DNA of 64,000 bases from Acidobacteriota bacterium (GCA_046735335.1 JBKPTE010000038.1:6707-70706); one strand, 5' to 3'; counted from the first letter of the stretch, positions 46,325 through 57,059 are shown. Translations and numbers: made by a program. Notes: a model not told the origin generated them from the letters alone.

Positions 46325-47713
46325 ATGAACCGATCGACCAAGACGATCTTGATCTGCGACGACGACGAGGGGATGCGGGACACGCTCACGGCGATCCTCA
46401 GGCGCGACTACCGCGTCCTGACGGTGTCGAGCGGCGAGGCGGCCCTGACGCTCGTCAAGGACGAGGACGTCGATCTCATCCTGCTCGACGTCCGACTGCC
46501 CGGCATCAACGGCTTCGACGTGCTGAAGATCGTCAAGGAGAACTACAGCCTGATCGAATGCATCATGATCTCGGCGATCAATGAGGTCGAAACCGCCGTG
46601 CAGGCGATGAAGCACGGCGCCTATCACTACATCACCAAGGATTTCGACTACGACGAGCTGCGCTCTCTCGTGCGGAACGCGTGCGAGCGCCAGGATCTGA
46701 ACCGGCAGGTCATCACCCTCAGCGCGCAGGTCGCCGAGCAGAGCGAACGCGAGTTCCTGATCGGCCCGAGCCGGCAGATCCGCGAAATCGTCGATCTGGT
46801 CCAGCGCGTCGCGAAGCTGTCGGCGACCGTCCTGATCCTCGGCGAGAGCGGGACGGGCAAGGAACTGCTCGCGCGACTGCTCCACCGCGAGTCGGGCCGG
46901 GGCGACGCCCCATTCATCGCGGTGAACATGTCCGCGATTCCGCACGAGCTCGTCGAGAGCACGCTCTTCGGCCACGAGCGCGGCTCGTTCACCGGTGCGC
47001 ACAAGCAGCAGCTCGGAAAGTTCGAGCTCGCCACGGGCGGCACGCTCTTCCTCGACGAGATCGGCGATCTGCGCTTCGACCTGCAGTCCAAGCTGCTGCG
47101 GGCGATTCAGGAGGGGGAGATCGAGCGCGTCGGCGGGACCAAGCCAATCCGGACGGATTTCCGCCTGATCGTCGCCACGAACGTGGACCTGGAAAAGGCG
47201 GTGAAGGAGGGACGGTTCCGCGAGGACCTCTATTACCGGATCAACGTGATCCCGATTCGGATGCCGCCGCTGCGGGACCGGATCGAAGATCTCCCGGAGC
47301 TGGCACGGCTGTTCCTGAATCGCTACAAGGCGAAGTTCAGGAAGCCGCTGAAAGGAATCGCGGATTCGGCCATCCGGATTCTGGCCTCCTACTGGTGGCC
47401 GGGGAACATCCGGGAGCTCGAGAACCTCATCGAGCGGCTCGTCGCCGTCAGCGACAAGGAATGGGTGACGGACGAGGACCTGCCGCTGGAGTACCACTTC
47501 GCGCGGCTCGACGCCTCGTCGACGTCGAACGAAACCCGGTTTCAGGAAGCCTGCGACACGTTCGAGCGCAACTTCATCCTGCGAGCGCTCGAGAAGTCCG
47601 ACTGGAACGTGACGGCCACCGCGCGCTATCTGGGGATTCCGCTCAGCACGCTGAAGCACAAGATGGCGCGGCTGGATCTGCGGGATCTCGCGCGCAAGCT
47701 CCGGGGCGCGTAA
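46325..47713 (+). CDS. sigma-54-dependent response regulator (NtrC family)
   Basis: 462 aa. REC domain (DLILLDVRLPG), AAA+ domain with GESGTGKE, GSFTGA loop (GAFTGA variant), ESTLFGHE, and a C-terminal Fis-type HTH. Confidence 0.93.
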   Translation: MNRSTKTILICDDDEGMRDTLTAILRRDYRVLTVSSGEAALTLVKDEDVDLILLDVRLPGINGFDVLKIVKENYSLIECIMISAINEVETAVQAMKHGAYHYITKDFDYDELRSLVRNACERQDLNRQVITLSAQVAEQSEREFLIGPSRQIREIVDLVQRVAKLSATVLILGESGTGKELLARLLHRESGRGDAPFIAVNMSAIPHELVESTLFGHERGSFTGAHKQQLGKFELATGGTLFLDEIGDLRFDLQSKLLRAIQEGEIERVGGTKPIRTDFRLIVATNVDLEKAVKEGRFREDLYYRINVIPIRMPPLRDRIEDLPELARLFLNRYKAKFRKPLKGIADSAIRILASYWWPGNIRELENLIERLVAVSDKEWVTDEDLPLEYHFARLDASSTSNETRFQEACDTFERNFILRALEKSDWNVTATARYLGIPLSTLKHKMARLDLRDLARKLRGA

Positions 47714-47754
47714 CCGGCCAATCCGTTGGCCGGCGCGGCCAACCCGTTGGCCGC
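47714..47754. promoter_or_regulatory. two 20-bp palindromes (CCGGCCAA-N4-TTGGCCGG; GCGGCCAA-N4-TTGGCCGC), candidate enhancer (UAS) sites or terminator hairpins
   Basis: Perfect 8-bp arms. Centres are 21 bp apart and lie about 150-175 bp upstream of the GG-N10-GC promoter. Confidence 0.4.
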
Positions 47755-47895
47755 TCGCGCAGAAGATCAGCGCCGCGTGCGCGGGAACAGCGCACCCATC
47801 GCGATCATGTAGAGTCCGATCGATCCCGCTGGATTTCCTGAAGAGTGACGGGCGCGTGCCCTTTCAATAGGACTCTTTCGACAGGCGTTCCTTAC

Positions 47896-47911
47896 CGGAA
47901 CATCCGTTGCA
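47896..47911 (+). promoter_or_regulatory. sigma-54 type -24/-12 promoter candidate (cGGaACa-N4-TTGCa)
   Basis: GG at 47897-98 and GC at 47909-10 have the exact consensus spacing. 9 of 12 defined positions of TGGCACG-N4-TTGCW match. Lies 73 nt upstream of the rSAM ATG. Confidence 0.5.
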
Positions 47912-47983
47912 ATTTTGAGGCACACCGGGGTGAGCGCATCCCGGTGCACTACCCGATTTTCCCGAACAGGCCGGAGCGACCCG

Positions 47984-49396
47984 ATGCAACCGTCGATGTT
48001 CAACGTCCGTGTGCCCCTGCCAGAGCGCAACGAGGTGTTCCTCATGAACACCTTTACGGACGCCCAGATCGTCGTCTCTCCCGACGTCGTCGCCCTCCTG
48101 GACCGGTTCGGCGGCGACGACGCGCCGGCGTTTCTCAGCGCCGAAGAGCGCTCGACGGTCGACGAGCTCGCCGAGCACGGGTTTCTCGTCACCGACAGAG
48201 ATCACGAACGGCACGAGCTCGAAACCTACTTCCGCAACATCCGCGAGAGCACGGACCAGCTCCGCGTCACGGTGCTCACGACCCTGCAGTGCAACTTCGC
48301 GTGCGACTACTGCATCCAGGGTGACCACGGCGACTACAACAAGCATGCGGCGAAGATGTCGATGGAAACGGCCGCCCGCGTCGCGGAGTGGACCGAGAGC
48401 CGTCTGGACGCGCTCCGCCCGCAGACGTTCGCCTTGACGCTGTTCGGCGGCGAGCCCCTGCTGAACCTGCCGGTCGCCTACTACCTCGCGGAACGGCTCC
48501 GGGCGTCGTGCGACGCACGCGGCGTGCGGATGCTGATCAACCTGATCACGAACGGGCTGCTCCTGACGCGCGAGGTGGTGACGCGCCTGAACGCGTGCGG
48601 GTTGAACGGCGTGAAGATCACGCTCGACGGCGACCGCGACACGCACAACCGGATGCGCCCGCTGCGCGGCGGCCAGGGCACGTTCGACCGCATCATCCAG
48701 AACGTCCGCGACGTCGCGCACCTCACGCGAATCTCGATTGGCGGCAACTTCGACATGGAGACCGCCGACAGCTATCCGGCCCTTCTCGATTTCCTTCGCG
48801 ATCAGGAGTTCGCCGACAAGCTGGCGCGCGTCTCGTTCAAGCCGGTGATTCGCGAGGCGCAGCCCGCCGCGAAGGGCCTCATCCCGCTCACCGCCGTGAG
48901 CGCGGAGGGCAAACCCCTCAACGGCGCATGCATGACCTCGGCGGGCACCGGCGTGAACCGCGTCTGCGACACGTGCAACTTCGTCGACGAAAAGATGGCG
49001 TTCCTCCGCGAGGAGACCAAGAAGCGCGGCTTCTCCACCGTCGACGGCGTGCACATGGGGCCGTGCGAGATCCACAAGGAGAACGCACACACCGTCGGCC
49101 CCGACGGCTCGCTGTTCGCGTGCCCCGGGTTCGCGGGCGAGGCGCTGCAGTCGATCGGCCACATCGATGGGCGGCAGGACGATTACCGGAGCCAGGCGCT
49201 GCGGCAGTTCGAGCGTCTCGCGGCCTGGAAGCAGTGCCAGGACTGCGCGTTCATCCCGGTCTGCGCGGGCGGCTGCACGGTCGCCGCGCACAACGAGCTG
49301 GGCGACATGCACGCGCCGAACTGCCACAAGACCAGCTTCGAGGCGGGCCTCGTCGCGCTCGCGCAGGACGCGGTGCGCGAACTGGTGCTGGCGTAA
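47984..49396 (+). CDS. radical SAM/SPASM-domain peptide-modifying enzyme
   Basis: 470 aa from ATG 47984, which has GGAG 7 nt upstream. Motifs CNFACDYC, GGEPLL, and a full SPASM region (C-x13-GSLFAC; CQDCAFIPVCAGGC; trailing C). The pre-core extension of about 90 aa is RRE-like. Confidence 0.9.
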   Translation: MQPSMFNVRVPLPERNEVFLMNTFTDAQIVVSPDVVALLDRFGGDDAPAFLSAEERSTVDELAEHGFLVTDRDHERHELETYFRNIRESTDQLRVTVLTTLQCNFACDYCIQGDHGDYNKHAAKMSMETAARVAEWTESRLDALRPQTFALTLFGGEPLLNLPVAYYLAERLRASCDARGVRMLINLITNGLLLTREVVTRLNACGLNGVKITLDGDRDTHNRMRPLRGGQGTFDRIIQNVRDVAHLTRISIGGNFDMETADSYPALLDFLRDQEFADKLARVSFKPVIREAQPAAKGLIPLTAVSAEGKPLNGACMTSAGTGVNRVCDTCNFVDEKMAFLREETKKRGFSTVDGVHMGPCEIHKENAHTVGPDGSLFACPGFAGEALQSIGHIDGRQDDYRSQALRQFERLAAWKQCQDCAFIPVCAGGCTVAAHNELGDMHAPNCHKTSFEAGLVALAQDAVRELVLA

Positions 49397-49457
49397 CCGC
49401 GTCGGGGTGCGGCGCGCGGAATTGGGGATTGGGGATTAGGGATTGTTGGAGGAACGA

Positions 49458-49553
49458 ATGAACGGGAAGAAGAAGACGGAAGACACGCGGAAGACCACGA
49501 GCAGCCCCGTGCGGCCGTGGCTGGTGGACGTCGTCATCGAGGATTTGCGGTAG
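49458..49553 (+). CDS. candidate precursor peptide A (31 aa): MNGKKKTEDTRKTTSSPVRPWLVDVVIEDLR
   Basis: GGAGGA lies 4 nt upstream of the ATG. Paralogous to peptide B. Too short to appear in the ORF track. Confidence 0.55.
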   Translation: MNGKKKTEDTRKTTSSPVRPWLVDVVIEDLR

Positions 49554-49625
49554 GCACCTCGTCGAACGCGTTGCGAGGCCGGTTGAACAACTGACCCCTG
49601 AGGGGGTGACGAAGGAGAGGGACCA

Positions 49626-49718
49626 ATGAAGATCACGGTTGTCAAGAAGAGCAGCACCAAGAAGGTCATGCACGTTTGCCCGTGGATGGTGGAAACCCCT
49701 CCCGAGCCGTCGAAGTAG
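49626..49718 (+). CDS. candidate precursor peptide B (30 aa): MKITVVKKSSTKKVMHVCPWMVETPPEPSK
   Basis: AAGGAG lies 8 nt upstream of the ATG. Shares the block V-x-P-W-(L/M)-V-(D/E) and overall layout with peptide A. Confidence 0.55.
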   Translation: MKITVVKKSSTKKVMHVCPWMVETPPEPSK

Positions 49719-49764
49719 CAGCCCCGTTTTGACGAGCGGCTGCTGCACAGAGGCTGCAGCCGCT
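49717..49764 (+). terminator. two mutually exclusive hairpins after peptide B (AGCAGCC/GGCTGCT; AGCGGCTGC/GCAGCCGCT)
   Basis: Stem 1 pairs 49717-49723 with 49738-49744. Stem 2 pairs 49735-49743 with 49756-49764. They share 49738-49743. There is no clear U-tract. Confidence 0.35.
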
Positions 49765-49820
49765 TGCAAAACTGTGCTATTGCGTGAGGAGCGCTTCGCC
49801 GATAACCTGCAGTAGCGTCA

Positions 49821-51353
49821 ATGTCACTGCAGGTAAGGGGTTGGGCATCCTTTGCCCTGCTAGTCGGGAGTCTGCTCGTTTGGACCGCGTGCGGCCGCGG
49901 CTCTCGTCCGTCCTCTGTTACCCATCCCGTCAGGCTAACGGTTGGGGTCGCGCTTCCATCGGGTGGTTCAGGAAGTGGGATTCCGGCTCTGACAGGCTCG
50001 CTGTTCACTAGCGAGCCACTCGTCAGTCCAGGCATAGACGGCAGGCCGACGCCACGTATTGCCAGCGGCTGGAGCTGGATGGACGGCGGACGGACACTGC
50101 GTGTCACGCTGCGACCGGACGTGTTTCTTCATGATGGAAGACGACTGAACGCGGAGATCGTTGCAAACCTCCTGAAGCCCAGGCCAAAGGGCTTCGGTCT
50201 CAGCTACAGAAGTCTCGCCTCAATCGTCGCGACTGGCGATAGCCAGATCGATTTCAATCTGACGAAACCCGAAGCATTCCTCCTCGCGGACCTCACGGAT
50301 GCATCGGTGGAAATAGCACCGCCTGGCGCAGGCCCGACCATTGGCACAGGTCCGTTCACGCTCGTAAACCAGAAGCCCTATCCGATTCTGCGGGCGTTCG
50401 ACAAGTACTATCAGGGCCGTCCTGCGATCGACGAGATCGCCATCAAGCCGTATCAGAGCCAGCGTCAGGCGTGGGCCGCGATGATGCGCGGTGAAATTGA
50501 CGCGCTCCACGAGGTCAGCCGCGAAGCCGCGGACTTCGTCGAGGCAGAAACCACCGTCCGGGCCTTCTCCTTCACGCGCGAATTCTACGTGCCGCTTGTC
50601 TTCAACGTGCGGCATCCGGTCCTTCGACAGCGCGAGGTGAGAATCGCGCTGAACGAAGCGGTGAACAAACAAGCCGTCGTCAAGGATGCGATGCGCGGAC
50701 GCGGCGAGGTCGCGGACAGCCCGATCTGGCCGCGCCACTGGGCACACAGCTCCGCTCAGCCGACGTTCGCACACAATCCGGCCGCGGCCCGGGTGCGGCT
50801 GGACGCTGCGGGATTTCCCTTGCGGACGCCGCCGAGCGGGTCTGCCGAGATGCCCAACCGCTTCTCGTTCACCTGCCTGATGTACGGCGACGATCCGCGC
50901 TTCGAGCGCATCGGCCTGGTCGTGCAGAAGCAGTTGTTCGACATCGGCGTCGACATGCGGCTGCAGCCGGTGTCGATGCGCGAACTCGGCGAACGCGTGT
51001 CGCGCGGGGACTTCGACGCGTTCCTGTTCGAGATGAACAGCGCGCGCTCGCTGAACTGGGTGTACCTGTTCTGGCACTCGCCGCCTGACGGCCCGTTTCT
51101 GAACACGGGCTACTCCTCCGCCGACGCAGCGCTCGATAGGCTGCGGTATGCGCAGTCCGATGAGGAGACCCGCGTCGGCACGGCGGAACTGCAGCGCGTC
51201 TTCTTCGAGGATCCGCCCGCGGTCTTTCTGGCGTGGGAGCAGGCCACCCGCGCCGTCTCCACGAAGTTCGTCGTTCCCGACGACCCCGGACGCGACGTGA
51301 TCGGGCTGGTTCGGCTCTGGCGTCCGGCCAGCGATTTGAGGGCGAGCCGGTGA
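49821..51353 (+). CDS. family-5 (oligopeptide/nickel type) solute-binding lipoprotein, orphan
   Basis: 510 aa. Lipobox LVWTAC. SBP_bac_5-like pattern throughout. No permease or ATPase genes are nearby. Confidence 0.82.
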   Translation: MSLQVRGWASFALLVGSLLVWTACGRGSRPSSVTHPVRLTVGVALPSGGSGSGIPALTGSLFTSEPLVSPGIDGRPTPRIASGWSWMDGGRTLRVTLRPDVFLHDGRRLNAEIVANLLKPRPKGFGLSYRSLASIVATGDSQIDFNLTKPEAFLLADLTDASVEIAPPGAGPTIGTGPFTLVNQKPYPILRAFDKYYQGRPAIDEIAIKPYQSQRQAWAAMMRGEIDALHEVSREAADFVEAETTVRAFSFTREFYVPLVFNVRHPVLRQREVRIALNEAVNKQAVVKDAMRGRGEVADSPIWPRHWAHSSAQPTFAHNPAAARVRLDAAGFPLRTPPSGSAEMPNRFSFTCLMYGDDPRFERIGLVVQKQLFDIGVDMRLQPVSMRELGERVSRGDFDAFLFEMNSARSLNWVYLFWHSPPDGPFLNTGYSSADAALDRLRYAQSDEETRVGTAELQRVFFEDPPAVFLAWEQATRAVSTKFVVPDDPGRDVIGLVRLWRPASDLRASR

Positions 51354-53089
51354 GACGGATCACCACCCGCTTCGCGCTGCTCATCGCAACGGCTGCCGTC
51401 GCACCGCTCGTGATCTATGGGGCCGTGTCCGTGAATTCCCTCCGGGACGGGACGCGCAACTCCGTGCGCGAAGGAAATCTCGGAGTCGCGCGCCAGGTTG
51501 CAGAGCAGATTCATCTCTATCTCGACAACAACACGCGTGTGCTCCGGTCTGCTGGCGTCGAGCTCACAGCGACTCGCCTGCAGCCGTGGCAGCAGACGCG
51601 GATCCTCCGCGATCACATCCTGGATTTTCCCGAGTTTCGAGAGCTCTCGCTCTTCGACGCGGGCGGGGAACTGATCGCAACCAGCCGTCTGTCCCAGACG
51701 ACGCTCTCGATGCCAGCGGGCGGCACCGGTCTCTCGAACGGCGTGTACGTGGCTCCCTTCAAAGTCGACGACGACCTCCTTCCCGCGACGACGATCGCCA
51801 TCCAGCTTCACTCCGGCTGGATCGTTGGCGAACTGTCGCTGGAAGAACTCTGGAGAATGGTCGACCGCATCCGTGTCGGCGAGGAAGGCTACGCGCTCGT
51901 CGTAGGCGAGGACGACCGCTTGATAGCCCACGGAAATCCGGACGAGAAGCGGCGCATCGCGATCAGCGATCAGCGGTCCGTCAGCCCCGGAATTCAGTTT
52001 GCCGAGCAGGCCCGGCACGATGCGAACGCAAAATTCACCGAATACTCCGACGAGAACGGCCGCCGGATGCTTGCGGTGGCCGCACCTGTGGCAAACGTGG
52101 GCTGGACAGTGGTCGTCGAACAGCCCACGAACGAGGCGTACGGGACGATGCACCGCCTCGAGCGGCAGCTCCTGGCGGCCATTGGCATCGCGCTCCTCGG
52201 CACCGTCGTCCTCGGCTATCTCTGGGGCCGATCGTTCATCCGCCGCATCTTCGCGCTGACGCGCGTGACGCGGTCGATCGCCGAAGGCAAGCTCGACTCG
52301 CGCGTCGCCATCAAGGGGCAGGACGAGATCCGCGAGCTGGGGGACGCCTTCAACTCGATGGCGGACCGCCTCGTCGAACTGCAGGAGGACATCCGCAAGC
52401 AGGAGCGGCAGGCGATGTTCGGCCGCATCGCCGCGGGCCTCGTGCACGACCTCTCGCATCCGATTCAGAACATCGGCAATTCCTGCAAGCTGATTCTGAA
52501 GATGTGGGACGACGCGGAGTACCGCGAGACGTTCAGGCGCATGGTGGAGCGCGAGATGATCATTGTCAAGCGCGTGCTCGACGACCTGCGCAACATCGCG
52601 CGGCCGATCCCGCTCGAGCGTTTCCCCGTCGACTTGAACCGCGCGGTGGCCGAAGTGGTCGAGTCGATGCAGCAGCACGCCGAGACCGCCGGCCTCACGC
52701 TGAAGGCGGAGCTCTCGCCCGAGAGCATCTTCATCGAGGGGGACGTGTTCGCGCTGGGGCGCGTCTACCGCAACCTGATTCTGAACGCGATCCAGGCCAC
52801 CGCGCCGGGCGGCCTGGTCGTCGCGGCGACCGAGGCGCGTCCCGGCCGCGCGCAGGTACGCATCTACGACACGGGCTGCGGCATCCCGGCCGACCGCCTG
52901 CACGCCATTTTCGAGGACTTCGTGACCACCAAGCGCCGCGGCCTGGGCCTCGGGCTCGCCATCTCCAAGAAGATCGTCGAGCAGCTTGGCGGCACGATCA
53001 GCGTGGCGAGCGAAGTCGGCAAGGGCACGACCTTCGTGCTGGAATTCCCGCGCACCGACGCCCGCCCGATGGCGCTGGTGGCAGGCTGA
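51350..53089 (+). CDS. sensor histidine kinase (TM, Cache-like, TM, HAMP, HisKA, HATPase)
   Basis: GTG 51350 overlaps the SBP stop (GTGA). H-box LVHDLSHP, N-box NLILNAIQA, G-boxes DTGCGI and GLGLGLAISK. Confidence 0.9.
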   Translation: MRRITTRFALLIATAAVAPLVIYGAVSVNSLRDGTRNSVREGNLGVARQVAEQIHLYLDNNTRVLRSAGVELTATRLQPWQQTRILRDHILDFPEFRELSLFDAGGELIATSRLSQTTLSMPAGGTGLSNGVYVAPFKVDDDLLPATTIAIQLHSGWIVGELSLEELWRMVDRIRVGEEGYALVVGEDDRLIAHGNPDEKRRIAISDQRSVSPGIQFAEQARHDANAKFTEYSDENGRRMLAVAAPVANVGWTVVVEQPTNEAYGTMHRLERQLLAAIGIALLGTVVLGYLWGRSFIRRIFALTRVTRSIAEGKLDSRVAIKGQDEIRELGDAFNSMADRLVELQEDIRKQERQAMFGRIAAGLVHDLSHPIQNIGNSCKLILKMWDDAEYRETFRRMVEREMIIVKRVLDDLRNIARPIPLERFPVDLNRAVAEVVESMQQHAETAGLTLKAELSPESIFIEGDVFALGRVYRNLILNAIQATAPGGLVVAATEARPGRAQVRIYDTGCGIPADRLHAIFEDFVTTKRRGLGLGLAISKKIVEQLGGTISVASEVGKGTTFVLEFPRTDARPMALVAG

Positions 53090-53165: not shown

Positions 53166-53411
53166 ATGCTTCGAAAACTCATTGAGACGCGAAATCTCGA
53201 GATCGACGGCCGCACGTATCAGACCCACTATTTCGAGATGCGGACGGCGCGCGGGGCGCGCCGCTACAGCTGCGAGGTCCTGCTGACGGCCGGGGATCGC
53301 ATCATCCTGGACGACGACACGCTGACGAGCCTGGAAGCCAAGGTCGCCCGGCTGGCGCCGGCGACCGTGTACAGCCGCGCGCTGGCCTCCCGCCGCTGGA
53401 TTGCCGCATAA
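53166..53411 (+). CDS. hypothetical 81-aa protein
   Basis: ATG 53166 has GGAGG 6 nt upstream. No recognisable domain. Confidence 0.45.
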
Positions 53412-53503: not shown

Positions 53504-53803
53504 TTATTTCCGCGGAAGCACCGCGTCCTTCAGCTGCTTGGCGATGCGCGCCTTGACCACCGTCTTCGCGGGGATCTTGATCGCTTCGCCGGTCGCCGGG
53601 TTGCGGCCCATGCGCGCTTTCCGCTTCTGAACCACCAGCTTCACCATTCCCGGCAGCACGAACTCACCGGAGCGCTTCAGCTCCTTCTCGGCGAGCACGT
53701 TGAGCTCGTCGAAGAATTCGCGCGCCTGCGTCCGCTTCACCTCGAACCGATCGGCGAAGTGAGAGAAGAGTTCGGATTTGCCCATCCTGCGGGCCTCTGC
53801 CAT
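53504..53803 (-). CDS. HU/IHF-family DNA-binding protein
   Basis: 99 aa (or 93 aa from the internal ATG at 53785). Motif [16 protein letters not shown] is the typical HU arm. Confidence 0.9.
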
Positions 53804-54652: not shown

Positions 54653-55351
54653 TCAGAACACGCCGGGCAGGACGCGCCAGCGCACCCGCTGCATGTAGTC
54701 GCGGTACCCGGCATCGTGGCCGAGCGCGCGCTCCTCGTACAGGGCCCTGAACATCATCGCGATGTCGGCGACGACGAGCAGCGAGATATTCCACGCCGAC
54801 GCGTTCGCGAGCAGGAAGCCGACGTGGGTCGTCATGTACCCGAGGTAGATGGGATGCCGGACGAAGCGGTAGACGCCCGAGCAGACCACGCCGCGGTTCG
54901 CCGGCGTCAATCCGAAGCTCCGTCCGAGCGACAGCTTGCCGAGCACGACGACCACGAGCCCCAGACCCGTAATCATCGCCGTGAGCATTTCCGGTGCGAG
55001 CGCCATGAACGACGCCGGACGCACGAGCGGAGGCCCGAACATCGACAACGCCGTCAGGAGCCGCGCGGTGGGCGTGCGATCCACGAGGGCGGCCGGGCGC
55101 CTGAACATCGTGAGCACGACTACGAGCGCTTCGCTCACCAGCAGCAGCACGCCCGTGACGTGGCCCGTCGCGCGCGCGTCCGCCGCGAGGCGAACGGCCA
55201 TCAGCGAGAACAGGACGACGATGATCGTTTTCGACACCAGCTCGCCGAGATCGCGCGTGCGCGCGTCCGGATCGGAAACCGGAATCGCGACCGGCCGCCG
55301 CGCAAGGCTGCGCGCGATGCCGGGCGGCGCGTCGAGGGCCAGGCGCTTCAT
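54653..55351 (-). CDS. isoprenylcysteine carboxyl methyltransferase (ICMT/PEMT) family membrane methyltransferase
   Basis: 232 aa from ATG 55351, which overlaps the upstream stop (ATGA). Motifs VRHPIYLGY and EERAL..GYRDYMQRV. Confidence 0.82.
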   Translation of the reverse strand: MKRLALDAPPGIARSLARRPVAIPVSDPDARTRDLGELVSKTIIVVLFSLMAVRLAADARATGHVTGVLLLVSEALVVVLTMFRRPAALVDRTPTARLLTALSMFGPPLVRPASFMALAPEMLTAMITGLGLVVVVLGKLSLGRSFGLTPANRGVVCSGVYRFVRHPIYLGYMTTHVGFLLANASAWNISLLVVADIAMMFRALYEERALGHDAGYRDYMQRVRWRVLPGVF

Positions 55352-56679
55352 GCCTCGTTCCCCTGCGACGCCACCTCCTCGAGGAAGTAGCTCGCGCACG
55401 CCGCATCGAGCAGCTCGCGCGTGATGAGCGGCTCGCGCTGCTGATAGCGGCACATGTCGACGACCTGCTCGATCAAATCGCGCGGATGGCAGGCGCGCAT
55501 CTGGATCTTCCGGGGCTGGTAATACTTCCGCTGCAGGTAGTCGATCATCACGGGGTCGAACGCCAGCGACCGCTTGCGGCAGTTCATCTCGAAGATCTGC
55601 GCGTACTCTTCGCGCGTGGGATTCTTCGCGCGGATCTTGTACGGAATACGGCGCAGGAACGCCTCGTCCGCGAGCGAATCCGGCTTGAGGTTCGTCGCGA
55701 AGATGATGAACACGTTGAACGGGATCTCGAACTTGCGCCCCGTGTGGAGCGTCAGGAAATCGACGCGGCTCTCGAGCGGCACGATCCAGCGGTTCAGGAG
55801 ATCGCGCGGGGGAATCCGCTGCCGCCCGAAGTCGTCGACGACGAATACGCCGCCGTTCGCCTTCAGCTGGATCGGCGCTTCGTAGAACTTGGAGATAGGG
55901 TTGAACGACAGGTCGAGCATCTCGAGCGTCAGCTCGCCTCCAACCACGACGACCGGCCGGCGGATCTGCTCCCACCGGCGATCGTGCTCGGTCTGCGCGA
56001 TCACGCTCTGCGCAGATCCGACAGGGGTGGTCAGTGTGTGGTTGACCGGATCCAGCATCGTGATGACCTGCCCGTCGACGTCGACGGCGTGCGGCACGTG
56101 CATGTCGCTGCCCAGCGCGCGGCCGATCCCTTCGGCGACGACCGTTTTACCGTTGCCCGGCGCGCCGTAGAGGAACAGCGCCTTCCCGGAGTTCACGGCC
56201 GGTCCGAGGAGGTCGTACATGCCCTGGCTCACGATCAGGTTCGTGAACCCCGTCGACAGACGGTTCCGATCCACCCACGGCTTCGCCGCCATGGCGGCGC
56301 GCACGTACGCGTTGTACTGCGAAAGCGGAACCGGGGCAGGGCCGACGTAGCGATTCAGATCGAGGAACTGCATCGCGCGTTCGCGGCCGAGATCCGTCAG
56401 CGCATAGCGATACCCCGCCGAGCCCGCGCCACTCGCGCCGCGCACCTCGATCAGCTTCTCGACCCGTGCGTGCTGGATGAGCGCATCGAGGACGGAATAC
56501 GGCAGCCGGAGCGCCTCGGACAGCTGGGTCCCGCTCGCCTCGCCCGTGACGAGCGTCTTCAGCATCAGCTGCGCGAGGACGTCCGGGTGCAGCCCCGTTT
56601 CCGCAATGGTTACCGGCGGCGCGGGGGGCATGGGCGCCTCGAGCACGCGCGGCTCGAACGTAGCAACGGTGGCGGTCAT
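55348..56679 (-). CDS. AAA+ ATPase with N-terminal winged-helix-like domain
   Basis: 443 aa from ATG 56679 (ATGA overlap). Walker A GAPGNGKT, Walker B VFVVDDFG, sensor FIIFATN. Confidence 0.8.
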   Translation of the reverse strand: MTATVATFEPRVLEAPMPPAPPVTIAETGLHPDVLAQLMLKTLVTGEASGTQLSEALRLPYSVLDALIQHARVEKLIEVRGASGAGSAGYRYALTDLGRERAMQFLDLNRYVGPAPVPLSQYNAYVRAAMAAKPWVDRNRLSTGFTNLIVSQGMYDLLGPAVNSGKALFLYGAPGNGKTVVAEGIGRALGSDMHVPHAVDVDGQVITMLDPVNHTLTTPVGSAQSVIAQTEHDRRWEQIRRPVVVVGGELTLEMLDLSFNPISKFYEAPIQLKANGGVFVVDDFGRQRIPPRDLLNRWIVPLESRVDFLTLHTGRKFEIPFNVFIIFATNLKPDSLADEAFLRRIPYKIRAKNPTREEYAQIFEMNCRKRSLAFDPVMIDYLQRKYYQPRKIQMRACHPRDLIEQVVDMCRYQQREPLITRELLDAACASYFLEEVASQGNEA

Positions 56680-57059
56680 CCTGCCAGCTCCTGCGGTTGG
56701 GTGTCCATCGTTTCGAACAGAATTCGATGCCCGATCGTCGTGCCCGACTCGGCAACGCGGCCCGCGGGAAGCTCCAGCACGCCTGCCGTTCCGCGCCGCG
56801 GCAGCCGGACGCGCCACGGCTTCAGGTTCGAGACGCAGTCGATCACGATGCCTTCCTCGTCGAGCGCCACGACGTCGATCGTGAACCGCATCCCCCACGT
56901 GTGGACGCCGCGGCTGGGCACGATCCAGAGCGCCTCGCCCGGTTCGAGGCCGGTGCGCGCGAGCAGTCCGACCGCCCGCTCCGCGCGCGTGATCGCCACG
57001 CCGACCCGATCAGCGACGACGATTCCCCGGTTCGTGTTGCGCGCGATGAGGCGCTTCAT
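56676..57059 (-). CDS. DUF192 domain protein
   Basis: 127 aa. Motif block GEALWIVPSRGVHTWGMRFTIDVVALD is typical of DUF192/COG1430. Confidence 0.75.
   Translation of the reverse strand: MKRLIARNTNRGIVVADRVGVAITRAERAVGLLARTGLEPGEALWIVPSRGVHTWGMRFTIDVVALDEEGIVIDCVSNLKPWRVRLPRRGTAGVLELPAGRVAESGTTIGHRILFETMDTQPQELAG

What the first reader, a model, noticed from the sequence alone, without database searches (positions are those of the whole stretch)
46325..53089. Candidate undescribed RiPP/peptide-signalling locus: sigma-54 response regulator, radical SAM/SPASM enzyme, twin mini-peptides, orphan peptide-type SBP, Cache sensor kinase
Seen in the sequence, as one co-directional block:
- an NtrC-type regulator (46325-47713)
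- two perfect palindromes (47714-47754)
- a GG-N10-GC promoter (47896-47911)
- a radical SAM enzyme with CNFACDYC, a complete SPASM domain and a ~90-aa RRE-like N-extension (47984-49396)
- two SD-preceded 31/30-codon ORFs that the ORF track misses
- a family-5 solute-binding lipoprotein with no permease or ATPase partner (49821-51353)
- a Cache-HAMP histidine kinase (51350-53089) whose start overlaps the SBP stop (GTGA)

Established knowledge: rSAM/SPASM enzymes next to tiny ORFs are the hallmark of RiPP maturation. SBP-plus-kinase pairs sense extracellular ligands, as in LuxP/LuxQ. NtrC-type regulators activate sigma-54 promoters from upstream palindromes.

Inference: the SBP/kinase pair may sense the mature peptide and, through the regulator, drive the maturase-precursor promoter. 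That would make a self-contained autoinducing circuit. No leader peptidase, exporter or immunity gene is present. The shared core V-x-P-W-(L/M)-V-(D/E) does not match any RiPP class I can name. An HU/IHF-family gene (53504-53803) and an unknown 81-aa ORF flank the block.
Basis: partly seen in the sequence, partly recalled or inferred. Interest (0 to 1): 0.88.

Follow-up and report, generated by a model that had tools for sequence, protein, structure and literature searches.

The report
Peptide-maturase operon wired to its sensor
A soil Acidobacteriota genome carries a radical-SAM enzyme and tiny cysteine-containing peptide genes behind a sigma-54 promoter, next to an orphan peptide-type binding protein, a sensor kinase and their regulator; the same gene set recurs in several bacterial phyla, which suggests an undescribed modified-peptide signalling circuit.

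Summary

**Conservation**
- In 80 Vicinamibacterales/Acidobacteriota genomes, 72/72 loci with enough upstream sequence have the regulator.
- 62/62 loci with enough downstream sequence have the binding protein (SBP) plus kinase.
- 67/70 have the small ORFs, which vary mainly at third codon positions.
- 64/72 keep the sigma-54 promoter; 66/72 keep a GGCCAA-N4-TTGGCC dyad about 170 nt upstream.

**Other phyla.** The rSAM + Cys-peptide + SBP_bac_5 + dCache-kinase set, usually with a sigma-54 regulator, recurs in shuffled gene order. It appears in Syntrophobacterales, Planctomycetota and Nitrospiria. In Poribacteria the SBP domain is fused to an HTH domain.

**Enzyme.** It has an RRE + rSAM + SPASM fold, closest to the thioether-forming CteB. 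It misses every curated family cutoff; the nearest is the geopeptide maturase (270 bits against a cutoff of 400).

**Corrections**
- The constant peptide feature is Cys-X4-Asp/Glu (85/86 type-B peptides), not P-W.
- The palindromes are an activator-binding site.
- HU is not part of the module; the 81-aa ORF probably is.

**Not shown.** Whether the SBP/kinase senses the mature peptide is inferred only. The support is that SBP divergence tracks peptide-core divergence (partial Mantel r=0.45). The chemistry, export and ligand are untested.

**Verdict:** real, apparently undescribed, and a new variant of known kinds.

The parts
46325..47713 (+). NtrC-type sigma-54-dependent response regulator (receiver + AAA+ with GSFTGA loop + HTH_8)
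   Evidence: Pfam Response_reg, Sigma54_activat and HTH_8. Best NCBIfam hits are NtrC/AtoC/ZraR, all below cutoff. Found upstream of the rSAM gene in 72/72 loci with enough sequence. Also adjacent in Syntrophobacterales, Planctomycetota and Latescibacteria loci.
47716..47752 (.). Two GGCCAA-N4-TTGGCC dyads 21 bp apart; probable upstream activator sequence for the regulator
   Evidence: The only two matches in the window, against 0.09 expected. At least one dyad in 66/72 orthologous intergenic regions and 0/72 shuffled ones. 26 pairs are exactly 21 bp apart. Median distance to the -24 element is 170 nt. Arms are conserved while the spacer varies. The same dyad and the same 21-bp pair occur in Syntrophobacterales L085/L090.
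47896..47911 (+). Sigma-54 (-24/-12) promoter CGGAAC-N5-TTGCA, 88 nt upstream of the rSAM start
   Evidence: The pattern YGG[ACT]AY-N4-5-TTGC[AT] is present in 64/72 orthologous intergenic regions, mostly 75-135 nt upstream of the start. TGGCAY-N5-TTGCT lies 56 nt upstream of the rSAM gene in L085/L090.
47984..49396 (+). Radical SAM/SPASM peptide maturase with an N-terminal RRE domain
   Evidence: Contains CNFACDYC and a 7-Cys SPASM pattern. Best NCBIfam hit is TIGR04280 at 270 bits (cutoff 400), followed by CefB, TIGR04463, FlmE/OhkG, PapB, QhpD and SCIFF maturases, all below cutoff. The closest PDB sequence and fold is CteB, 5wgg/5why. AF2 mean pLDDT is 80.7.
49458..49553 (+). Type-A mini-peptide MNGKKKTEDTRKTTSSPVRPWLVDVVIEDLR. 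It has Arg where type B has Cys and lacks the MKIxVIKK leader
   Evidence: Found in 56 of 80 genome loci with a near-invariant KK.GTLRPWLVDVxxDxLR-stop. Shows a third-codon-position variation pattern. Absent from deep-branching Acidobacteriota loci and from other phyla.
49626..49718 (+). Type-B precursor peptide MKITVVKKSSTKKVMHVCPWMVETPPEPSK (leader MKIxV[IV]KK, core C-X4-[DE])
   Evidence: One to four copies per locus. 85/86 copies carry C-X4-[DE]. An SD is present in 52/53. Peptides with the same leader and a Cys core lie next to the rSAM gene in other phyla.
49726..49772 (+). Stem-loop after the last peptide gene; possible partial terminator or transcript-stabilising hairpin
   Evidence: For the folded segment 49700-49830: MFE -52.9 kcal/mol, z = -2.3. 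There is no T-tract here. Deep-branching loci have a clear AACGCCGCACC...GGTGCGGCGTTTT terminator at the same place. Weak evidence in this window.
49821..51353 (+). Orphan SBP_bac_5 (Opp/Dpp/Nik-type) solute-binding lipoprotein; proposed ligand receptor
   Evidence: Pfam SBP_bac_5, E = 1e-56. No NCBIfam family reaches its cutoff. No ABC permease or ATPase in any locus. Present with the kinase in 62/62 loci. It is the fastest-evolving component and tracks peptide-core divergence.
51350..53089 (+). dCache_1-HAMP histidine kinase (AtoS/ZraS-like core); start overlaps the SBP stop
   Evidence: Pfam and NCBIfam hits. The dCache kinase is directly linked to the rSAM gene in L084, L085, L086, L088, L170, L172 and L174.
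53166..53411 (+). Conserved 81-aa protein of unknown function; probable accessory member
   Evidence: A homologue follows the kinase in 36 Vicinamibacterales loci and in Syntrophobacterales L085/L090, E = 9e-12. 521 homologues, all 'hypothetical', with no Pfam match. AF2 pLDDT is 86, showing four strands plus a long helix. No significant structural match.

Best explanation
The block is a self-regulating modified-peptide module.

Proposed mechanism
1. The NtrC-type regulator binds the two GGCCAA-N4-TTGGCC dyads and activates the sigma-54 promoter in front of the rSAM gene and the peptide genes.
2. The rSAM/SPASM enzyme recognises the MKIxVIKK leader of the type-B peptide through its N-terminal RRE domain.
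3. It then modifies the Cys-X4-Asp/Glu core. The most likely product is a thioether ring between the Cys sulfur and a carbon of the Asp/Glu, as in ranthipeptides and QhpC.
4. The trimmed product reaches the periplasm, where the orphan SBP5 lipoprotein binds it.
5. The SBP presents it to the dCache domain of the kinase, which phosphorylates the regulator. This closes a positive-feedback (autoinduction or cell-cell signalling) loop.

Shown by comparative evidence
- The genes, peptides, promoter and dyads are real and conserved.
- The SBP, kinase, rSAM gene and peptide travel together across phyla.

Inferred
- The regulator acts at this promoter.
- The kinase and regulator are partners.
- The SBP ligand is the mature peptide.
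- The chemistry of the modification.
- The export route.
For: Conservation within the order (80 Vicinamibacterales/Acidobacteriota genomes)
- Regulator present in 72/72 loci, SBP plus kinase in 62/62, and peptides in 67/70.

The same components in shuffled order outside the order
- Syntrophobacterales: RR-rSAM-pep-SBP-HK.
- Planctomycetota: SBP-pep-rSAM-HK-RR.
- Nitrospiria: rSAM-pep-SBP-HK.
- Two unclassified MAG lineages: SBP-pep-rSAM-hybrid HK.
- Latescibacteria: pep-rSAM-HK-RR.
- Poribacteria and one other lineage: rSAM-[HTH::SBP5]-pep.

Regulatory DNA
- The sigma-54 promoter is kept in 64/72 loci and the dyad in 66/72, with 21-bp pairs. Both are also present in Syntrophobacterales.

Peptides
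- The pattern of codon variation is that of a coding sequence.
- C-X4-[DE] is present in 85/86 type-B copies.

Enzyme
- It sits among thioether-forming peptide maturases by sequence and by fold. CteB is the top hit over the full length, including the RRE.

Receptor-ligand signal
- Mean pairwise identity is 39% for the SBP, against 82% for the RR, 69% for the rSAM, 49% for the kinase sensor and 71% for the kinase core.
- In a partial Mantel test against peptide-core divergence, controlling for rSAM divergence: SBP r=0.45 (p<=0.0005), kinase r=0.32, RR r=0.04 (not significant).
Against: - No exporter, leader peptidase or immunity gene lies in the conserved module, so how the peptide would reach a periplasmic receptor is unexplained.
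- Physical linkage of a sensor to the operon it controls is expected whatever the sensor's ligand is.
- The Mantel signal could partly reflect shared fast evolution or residual phylogeny.
- Type A, the first peptide gene in this window, lacks both the Cys and the leader. A thioether model does not explain it.
- Syntrophobacterales cores (CFWYLYV, CWWMIYK) and locus L081 (CPWMIC) lack Asp/Glu at +5.
- The SBP's weak best family hits are to nickel/metallophore binders.
- The sister geopeptide loci sit next to TonB-dependent receptors, which fits uptake rather than signalling.
- Deep-branching loci have a terminator between the peptide gene and the SBP gene. The sensor genes are therefore probably not under the same promoter.
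Confidence: 0.5

Rival explanations
1. Cue-induced RiPP production. The SBP and kinase sense an external cue unrelated to the locus's own peptide, such as nutrient oligopeptides, a metal or a competitor's molecule. The regulator then switches on a modified peptide that acts as an antimicrobial, a stress effector or another effector rather than as a signal.
For: - A regulator adjacent to its regulon is the default arrangement, so linkage alone does not identify the ligand.
- No exporter lies in the module, so a dedicated secreted signal is not demonstrated.
- A terminator follows the peptide gene in deep-branching loci. The sensor genes would then be expressed separately, as for any environmental sensor.
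Against: - SBP divergence tracks peptide-core divergence after controlling for the rSAM enzyme, whereas the regulator does not.
- The SBP is far more variable than expected for a receptor of a common nutrient or metal.
- The SBP5 domain stays next to the rSAM gene even where the kinase is replaced by an HTH fusion.
- No immunity or self-resistance gene is present.
- The locus lies in a conserved core-genome position with uniform GC, which is unlike a typical antibiotic cluster.
Confidence: 0.3
2. Metallophore-type system. The modified Cys-peptide chelates a metal outside the cell. The SBP5 protein, related to NikA/CntA/MbnE-type binders, recognises the metal-peptide complex. It signals through the kinase in the way siderophore-receptor signalling works.
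For: - The SBP's best, though weak, NCBIfam hits are Opp5A/NikA nickel binders and the staphylopine binder CntA.
- True geopeptide loci, the sister family, lie next to TonB-dependent receptor genes.
- Syntrophobacterales locus L085 has a TonB-dependent receptor gene about 1.2 kb downstream of the kinase.
- From general knowledge: methanobactin operons combine a RiPP, an SBP5-type MbnE and a TonB-dependent transporter.
Against: - Acidobacteriota cores contain a single Cys and no His- or Cys-rich ligand set.
- The enzyme's relatives consume the thiol by forming a thioether.
- No ABC importer is present.
- No TonB-dependent receptor lies within the examined part of this window or in the Vicinamibacterales synteny.
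- All the SBP family scores are far below their cutoffs (87 bits against 600).
Confidence: 0.12
3. The small ORFs are not substrates of the enzyme. They are either chance ORFs or unrelated micro-proteins, and the rSAM enzyme acts on something else, such as a protein or a small molecule.
For: No biochemical data exist. Type A lacks both a leader and a Cys.
Against: - The ORFs are conserved in 67/70 loci, with coding-type substitution patterns and SD sequences.
- Peptides of the same leader-plus-Cys-core type lie next to the rSAM homologue in other phyla and in the sister geopeptide family.
- The enzyme has an RRE domain and the fold of a peptide maturase.
Confidence: 0.03

Closest known systems
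Geopeptide system (NCBIfam TIGR04280 geopeptide radical SAM maturase; defined only in silico, no published chemistry found)
   Same: - It is the best-scoring family over the full length of the enzyme.
- True members found here (L107-L113, 480-630 bits) also have a ~30-aa precursor with a beta-strand-type leader (..IIVLDKG..) and a Cys core next to the maturase.
- At least one has a sigma-54 activator nearby.
   Different: - The window enzyme scores 270 bits against a cutoff of 400.
- Geopeptide precursors lie upstream of the maturase and have a CC core.
- Their neighbours are TonB-dependent receptors, not an SBP5 protein plus a dCache kinase.
- The window peptides match no NCBIfam model.
Thioether-forming rSAM/SPASM maturases: CteB (SCIFF/ranthipeptides), PapB, and QhpD (Cys-Asp/Glu links in QhpC)
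   Same: - RRE + rSAM + two-cluster SPASM architecture.
- CteB is the top sequence and fold match in the PDB.
- The substrate core pairs a Cys with an Asp/Glu a few residues downstream (C-X4-[DE]). From general knowledge, this resembles PapB's C-X3-D and QhpD's Cys-Asp/Glu links.
   Different: - All curated cutoffs are missed: PapB 123/340, SCIFF 102/425, QhpD 108/453.
- There is a single Cys per peptide rather than several.
- The sensor and regulator context is different.
- The chemistry is untested.
Quorum-sensing-controlled rSAM RiPPs of streptococci (Rgg/SHP-regulated RaS-RiPPs such as streptide; reviewed in PMC13361665)
   Same: A short precursor and an rSAM/SPASM maturase with an RRE are transcribed under the control of a peptide-responsive regulator.
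   Different: - In streptococci the sensed peptide (SHP) is a separate, unmodified pheromone. It is imported by Opp and bound by a cytoplasmic Rgg regulator.
- Here the sensor is a periplasmic SBP, a dCache kinase and a sigma-54 activator in diderm bacteria.
- Here the proposed ligand is the RiPP itself.
Three-component SBP + histidine kinase + sigma-54 activator sensors (AioX/AioS/AioR for arsenite; also LuxP/LuxQ and TorT/TorS). Cited from general knowledge, not tested here
   Same: An orphan periplasmic binding protein with no transporter is encoded next to a sensor kinase. An NtrC-type regulator drives a sigma-54 promoter from upstream dyads.
   Different: The SBP here is of the peptide/nickel family 5, and the controlled operon encodes a peptide and its maturase. 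No sequence relationship to those systems was tested.

Membership tests
rSAM/SPASM RiPP maturase superfamily | CX3CX2C radical SAM motif plus a C-terminal SPASM Cys pattern for two auxiliary clusters | tested here: met
   CNFACDYC is present, followed by C-X13-G-X4-C ... C-X2-C-X5-C-X3-C ... C. The Cys columns are invariant in 16- and 40-sequence alignments. Pfam Radical_SAM.
rSAM/SPASM RiPP maturase superfamily | N-terminal RiPP recognition element (PqqD-like three strands plus three helices) | tested here: met
   In the AF2 model residues 1-88 form three strands and three helices with pLDDT above 90. Foldseek aligns the full length to the RRE-containing CteB. No Pfam PqqD hit.
rSAM/SPASM RiPP maturase superfamily | Adjacent short precursor gene(s) with a conserved leader and core | tested here: met
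   Type-B peptides are conserved in Acidobacteriota and in other phyla.
rSAM/SPASM RiPP maturase superfamily | The enzyme modifies the peptide | not testable with these tools
   Requires co-expression and mass spectrometry.
Geopeptide maturase (TIGR04280) | Score at or above the curated cutoff of 400 bits | tested here: not met
   The window enzyme scores 270.4 bits. Module relatives score 240-345 bits. True members score 480-630 bits.
Geopeptide maturase (TIGR04280) | CC-core precursor immediately upstream of the maturase, as seen in the true members found here | tested here: not met
   The window peptides lie downstream of the enzyme. One has a single Cys and the other has none.
Ranthipeptide / SCIFF / PapB / QhpD thioether maturases | Score at or above the curated cutoffs (SCIFF 425, PapB 340, QhpD 453) | tested here: not met
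   Scores are 102.5, 123 and 107.8 bits.
Ranthipeptide / SCIFF / PapB / QhpD thioether maturases | Cys donor and acceptor residue in the core; thioether product | tested here: inconclusive
   C-X4-[DE] is present in 85/86 type-B peptides, which is compatible with a thioether. The product is unknown, type A has no Cys, and some lineages lack D/E at +5.
NtrC-type bacterial enhancer-binding response regulator with a sigma-54 promoter | Receiver domain, AAA+ sigma-54 interaction domain with a GAFTGA-type loop, and HTH_8 | tested here: met
   Pfam domains. GSFTGA is readable in the translation.
NtrC-type bacterial enhancer-binding response regulator with a sigma-54 promoter | -24 GG / -12 GC promoter with upstream dyad sites at the target operon | tested here: met
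   Promoter and dyads are conserved across 64/72 and 66/72 loci, and in a second phylum. Binding and rpoN dependence are not testable here.
Autoinducing peptide (quorum-sensing) circuit | The product of the regulated operon is the ligand of the sensor that activates it | not testable with these tools
   Only indirect support: co-diversification of the SBP and the peptide core, and HTH::SBP5 fusions.
Autoinducing peptide (quorum-sensing) circuit | Dedicated export and processing of the signal | tested here: not met
   No transporter or peptidase gene is conserved in the module. Peptidase genes (M29, M55) are neighbours in only two lineages.
ABC importer substrate-binding protein (Opp/Dpp/Nik) | Co-encoded permease and ATPase; score above a curated family cutoff | tested here: not met
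   No permease or ATPase appears in any locus. The best NCBIfam score is 87 bits against a cutoff of 600.

The most novel reading that the evidence does not exclude
This would be a widespread peptide-pheromone system of diderm soil and sediment bacteria, fixed across the order in Vicinamibacterales.
- A radical-SAM-cyclised Cys-X4-Asp/Glu peptide is read in the periplasm by an orphan SBP5 lipoprotein and a dCache kinase, and it amplifies its own synthesis through a sigma-54 activator.
- Receptor and peptide core co-diversify into 'pherotypes'.
- The Cys-less, leaderless type-A paralogue acts as an unmodified mimic, for example an antagonist or a second signal.
- The crosslink chemistry may also be new.
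Probability: 0.35. Interest if true: 0.88.

Novelty: new variant of a known kind. Interest (0 to 1): 0.76.

Why it matters
Acidobacteriota of the Vicinamibacterales are among the most abundant and least cultured soil bacteria, and almost nothing is known about how they communicate.

- **A new kind of signal.** Peptide pheromones are regarded as a Gram-positive speciality. A ribosomal, enzyme-cyclised peptide sensed by a binding-protein/kinase pair in diderm bacteria would add a new class of signalling system. Because the system spans several phyla, it would not be confined to one group.
- **A defined experimental starting point.** The locus offers a promoter, operator dyads, a small enzyme-substrate pair and a soluble receptor. 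All of these can be tested in a heterologous host without culturing the organism.
- **Annotation and enzymology.** It places a large set of proteins annotated only as 'radical SAM' or 'SPASM domain' (thousands of homologues) next to the uncharacterised geopeptide family. It also predicts a Cys-Asp/Glu crosslink that can be checked by mass spectrometry.

Tried and rejected
- **Literature.** Six full-text searches found no description of this module: 'geopeptide' (0 papers) and combinations of radical SAM, RiPP, Acidobacteria, sigma-54, SBP, histidine kinase and ranthipeptide quorum sensing.
- **Peptides against NCBIfam.** No hits even at E<=10.
- **RNA genes.** No Rfam family and no tRNA in the window.
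- **Generic promoter/terminator scan.** Uninformative; counts were no higher than in shuffles.
- **P-W as the defining core.** Rejected. Relaxed scanning shows CPF, CPY, CAW, CAF, CGW, CST, CDV and CAM cores.
- **Trp-centred crosslink.** Considered because type A has R-P-W and a W-P-R Trp-Arg crosslinking enzyme, WprB, exists (PMC11851443 abstract). It was set aside as the general chemistry because Trp is not conserved.
- **Palindromes as a terminator of the regulator gene.** Rejected. The arm sequence is conserved while the spacer varies, pairs are spaced 21 bp apart, and the same motif occurs in another phylum.
- **HU/IHF gene as a module member.** Rejected. It is syntenic only within the order.
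- **Horizontal island.** No GC anomaly, and the flanking synteny is conserved.
- **Strict sigma-54 pattern in other loci.** Not found in the Planctomycetota, Nitrospiria or hybrid-kinase loci. The Planctomycetota locus does have its own tandem dyads, TGCACAAGTTCTTGTGCA x2.
- **The 81-aa protein.** The fold search gave no significant match; the best hit was a PUR repeat at E = 0.04.
- **Uninformative or negative distant rSAM contexts.** L082 (contig ends just after the rSAM gene) was uninformative and L083 (no SBP or kinase nearby) was negative.

Full report
**1. Observation**

- **Regulator.** Pfam finds Response_reg, Sigma54_activat, AAA_lid_14 and HTH_8.
- **Enzyme.** Pfam finds Radical_SAM. 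By eye the protein has CNFACDYC and a complete SPASM cysteine pattern.
- **Binding protein and kinase.** Pfam finds SBP_bac_5 in the lipoprotein, and dCache_1, HAMP and HATPase_c in the kinase.
- **Small ORFs.** MNGKKKTEDTRKTTSSPVRPWLVDVVIEDLR (49458-49553, 'type A') and MKITVVKKSSTKKVMHVCPWMVETPPEPSK (49626-49718, 'type B'). Each has a GGAGG-type ribosome-binding site.
- **Dyads.** GGCCAA-N4-TTGGCC occurs exactly twice in the 64-kb window, at 47716 and 47737. The chance expectation is 0.09.
- **Promoter.** A single GG-N10-GC match at 47896 is not significant on its own. It gains meaning only from conservation, described below.

**2. Conservation within the order**

The rSAM protein has thousands of homologues (3,225 with E<=1e-10 among those scored). 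The closest are 73-99% identical, come from soil metagenomes and carry no informative name.

A scan of one genome per species returned 297 relatives. The best 80 are nearly all Vicinamibacterales/Acidobacteriota MAGs; a few records carry other taxonomic labels. Their gene order is lpd - orf90 - regulator - rSAM - peptides - SBP - kinase - (81-aa ORF) - HU - queF.

| Feature | Loci with the feature / loci with enough sequence |
|---|---|
| Regulator upstream | 72/72 |
| SBP + kinase downstream | 62/62 |
| Type-A or type-B peptide | 67/70 |

- **Type A.** Near-invariant (..KK.GTLRPWLVDVxxDxLR-stop) and present in 56 loci.
- **Type B.** Present in one to four tandem copies, with the leader MK[IV]x[VI][IV]KK.
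- **Coding signature.** In both types, variation is concentrated at third codon positions while the amino acids are kept. SD sequences precede 52/53 type-B genes. These are real coding genes.

**3. Regulatory DNA**

- YGG[ACT]AY-N4-5-TTGC[AT] lies mostly 75-135 nt upstream of the rSAM start in 64/72 orthologous intergenic regions.
- At least one GGCCAA-N4-TTGGCC dyad (at most one mismatch) is present in 66/72 regions and in 0/72 shuffled controls.
- 33 regions have two or more dyads, and 26 adjacent pairs are exactly 21 bp (two helical turns) apart.
- The median distance from a dyad to the -24 element is 170 nt.
- The arms keep their sequence while the 4-nt spacer varies.

This is the behaviour of a protein-binding site, not of a hairpin. 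I therefore read the two 'perfect palindromes' as the upstream activator sequence of the NtrC-type regulator.

**4. Beyond the order**

Synteny within a single order could simply be inherited. I therefore looked at distant relatives of the rSAM protein (about 30-40% identity), found through a search of 50%-identity representatives and a second homologue search.

| Lineage (locus) | Gene order | Peptide |
|---|---|---|
| Syntrophobacterales (L085, L090) | RR - rSAM - pep - SBP_bac_5 - dCache kinase - homologue of the 81-aa ORF | MKLKVVKKGSKEDKKVLWCFWYLYV |
| Planctomycetota (L170) | SBP5 - pep - rSAM - dCache kinase - sigma-54 RR | MKVIKKGEERLSEKNQVCCPAFAFPYNGYDEEE |
| Nitrospiria (L172) | rSAM - pep - SBP5 - dCache kinase | MKIVKKGERKVKIKRAYCTWFVG |
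| Unclassified MAG lineages (L086/87, L088/89) | SBP5 - pep - rSAM - dCache-HAMP-PAS hybrid kinase | ..LECCAWINDDYGR; MIVKVLDRGTENPVDILAFCCLWFEGDYA |
| Latescibacteria (L174) | pep - rSAM - dCache kinase - sigma-54 RR | contains ..GVCCASPW.. |
| Unassigned metagenome contig (L084) | rSAM - dCache kinase (upstream side cut off) | none found |
| Poribacteria (L171) and L173 | glycosyltransferase - rSAM - [HTH_11::SBP_bac_5 fusion] - pep | CC-core peptide |

Only L083 lacked the partners, and L082 was uninformative because its contig ends just after the rSAM gene.

The Syntrophobacterales loci also have a canonical sigma-54 promoter (TGGCAY-N5-TTGCT) 56 nt upstream of the rSAM gene. They carry the same GGCCAA-N4-TTGGCC dyads, including a pair 21 bp apart. 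The Planctomycetota locus has its own pair of tandem dyads upstream of the SBP gene.

Linkage that survives gene-order shuffling across phyla argues that the SBP5 domain, the Cys-peptide, the rSAM enzyme and the sensor/regulator work together.

**5. The enzyme and the likely chemistry**

- **Sequence.** The best curated family is TIGR04280, the 'geopeptide radical SAM maturase', at 270 bits over the full length but below its 400-bit cutoff. Next come CefB, TIGR04463, FlmE/OhkG, PapB, Clo7bot, QhpD, nif11, SCIFF and CcpM maturases, all below cutoff. Most of the named ones are maturases of Cys-containing peptides.
- **Structure.** The only solved relatives by sequence are CteB (E = 5e-17), ChlB, TigE and MoaA. 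An AF2 model (pLDDT 80.7) has an N-terminal three-strand, three-helix domain. Its best full-length structural match is CteB, followed by TigE, ChlB, SuiB and anSME.
- **Peptide cores.** A relaxed scan for type-B peptides shows that Pro and Trp are not constant (CPW, CPF, CPY, CAW, CAF, CGW, CST, CDV, CAM...). Cys followed four residues later by Asp or Glu is constant, in 85/86 copies.

From what is known of PapB, QhpD and CteB (general knowledge), a Cys-S to Asp/Glu-carbon thioether ring is the most economical prediction. I give it roughly 0.4.

Exceptions to this prediction:
- Syntrophobacterales cores have Tyr at +5.
- L081 has Cys at +5.
- Type A has Arg in place of Cys and lacks the hydrophobic leader. 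It may be a non-substrate paralogue derived from type B: compare type-B CPWLVDVP in L015 with type-A RPWLVDV.

**6. Relation to geopeptide**

The metagenome scan also recovered true TIGR04280 members, scoring 480-630 bits.

- Their precursors lie just upstream of the maturase. Examples are MKKRIIVLDKGVTGKDLLTGGCCPSSSQRA and MSDVVVILDEGVKEEELAQTACCPSSTSRA.
- Their neighbours are TonB-dependent receptors. In one case there is also an RR-PAS-sigma-54 activator.
- No SBP5 or dCache kinase was detected in them.

The window's system is therefore a sister of the geopeptide system, not a member. Both share the leader-plus-Cys-core design. Both are also associated with an envelope binding or uptake protein.

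**7. Is the SBP the receptor for the peptide?**

Indirect evidence comes from 41 complete loci.

| Component | Mean pairwise identity | Partial Mantel r against peptide-core divergence, controlling for rSAM |
|---|---|---|
| SBP | 39% | 0.45 (p<=0.0005) |
| Kinase, sensor part | 49% | 0.32 (whole kinase) |
| Kinase, cytoplasmic part | 71% | as above |
| rSAM | 69% | control variable |
| Regulator | 82% | 0.04 (not significant) |

The SBP signal also survives controlling for the kinase (r=0.34). The permutation test does not fully remove phylogeny, so this is supportive rather than decisive.

The HTH::SBP5 fusions next to the rSAM gene in two lineages fit the idea that the SBP5 domain is the product's receptor, whether in the periplasm or the cytoplasm.

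Points against:
- No exporter or leader peptidase is conserved in the module.
- Deep-branching loci have a clean terminator after the peptide gene. The sensor genes probably have their own promoter. That is compatible with a sensor needing basal expression, but it means the 'single co-directional block' is at least two transcription units.

**8. Rivals**

- (a) The sensor responds to an unrelated cue and the peptide is an effector (0.3).
- (b) A metallophore-type system (0.12). This is suggested by the nickel/staphylopine-type weak SBP hits and by the TonB-receptor neighbours of the sister family. It is weakened by the single Cys and by the thioether-type enzyme.
- (c) The ORFs are not substrates (0.03).

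**9. Novelty**

- No source names these proteins beyond 'radical SAM', 'SPASM domain' or 'hypothetical'.
- No curated family cutoff is reached.
- Six literature searches found nothing on this module or on geopeptide. The library does not cover all journals, so prior description cannot be excluded.

The parts are known kinds: an rSAM RiPP pair, an SBP-assisted two-component sensor and an NtrC/sigma-54 switch. Their fixed combination appears to be new. So does the order-wide, core-genome conservation in Vicinamibacterales, with uniform GC and conserved flanks. I rate it a new variant of a known kind, with interest 0.76.

**10. Verdict**

The autoinduction step, the chemistry and the export route remain inferences, with an overall confidence of 0.5 for the full mechanism.

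Noticed in passing
window 53166-53411 (+): An 81-aa protein follows the kinase. It is very conserved (77% mean column identity over 22 homologues) and ends in a conserved -VAA/-AA. The AF2 model has four antiparallel strands plus a long C-terminal helix (PUR-repeat-like topology), with no significant structural match. A homologue also follows the kinase in Syntrophobacterales (L085 12344-12577).
   Followed up: partly
L064 9475-9621; L022 9603-10095: L064 encodes a type-B peptide with two fused core repeats (...KPSTCPWMVDVPE twice in one ORF). L022 carries four tandem near-identical type-B genes, three of them encoding identical peptides.
   Followed up: no
window 48854-48973 (rSAM residues ~291-330): Vicinamibacterales enzymes carry an insertion of about 35-40 aa between the rSAM barrel and the SPASM domain. 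It contains ..NGACMTSAG.. with an extra Cys, has pLDDT below 50, and is absent from relatives in other phyla.
   Followed up: no
L107 4918-8299; L112 2219-5579; L113 2279-7790: True geopeptide maturase loci (TIGR04280 above 480 bits) have one or two TonB-dependent receptor genes directly beside the CC-core precursor and the maturase. L107 also has an RR-PAS-sigma-54 activator and a CZB-domain chemoreceptor.
   Followed up: partly
L171 4913-9528; L173 4842-10764: In Poribacteria and one further lineage the rSAM gene is flanked by glycosyltransferase family 2 genes. It is followed by a cytoplasmic HTH_11::SBP_bac_5 fusion (SgrR-like architecture) and a CC-core peptide gene.
   Followed up: partly
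window 53504-53803 (-): The HU/IHF-family gene is mostly 93-100% identical across the examined Vicinamibacterales loci (down to about 81% in a few). It is syntenic only within the order, so it is probably the housekeeping HU rather than a dedicated bending factor for the sigma-54 promoter.
   Followed up: yes
L050, L056, L058, L060, L063, L070, L073-L076, L080 (about 30-80 nt after the type-B stop): A conserved intrinsic terminator, AACGCCGCACC..GGTGCGGCGTTTT, follows the single type-B gene in the deep-branching loci. The window has only a T-less hairpin at the same place (49726-49772).
   Followed up: partly
L084 3187-4554; L086 4223-5023: Aminopeptidase genes (Peptidase_M29 and Peptidase_M55) lie next to the module in two distant lineages. 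They are possible leader-trimming enzymes. No counterpart occurs in the window.
   Followed up: no
window 54653-55975 (-) and 55348-56898 (-): Two long minus-strand ORFs overlap by about 630 nt. One has a C-terminal ICMT/PEMT-type methyltransferase domain. The other is a 516-aa protein with a Walker-A motif and no Pfam match. At least one of the predicted starts must be wrong.
   Followed up: no
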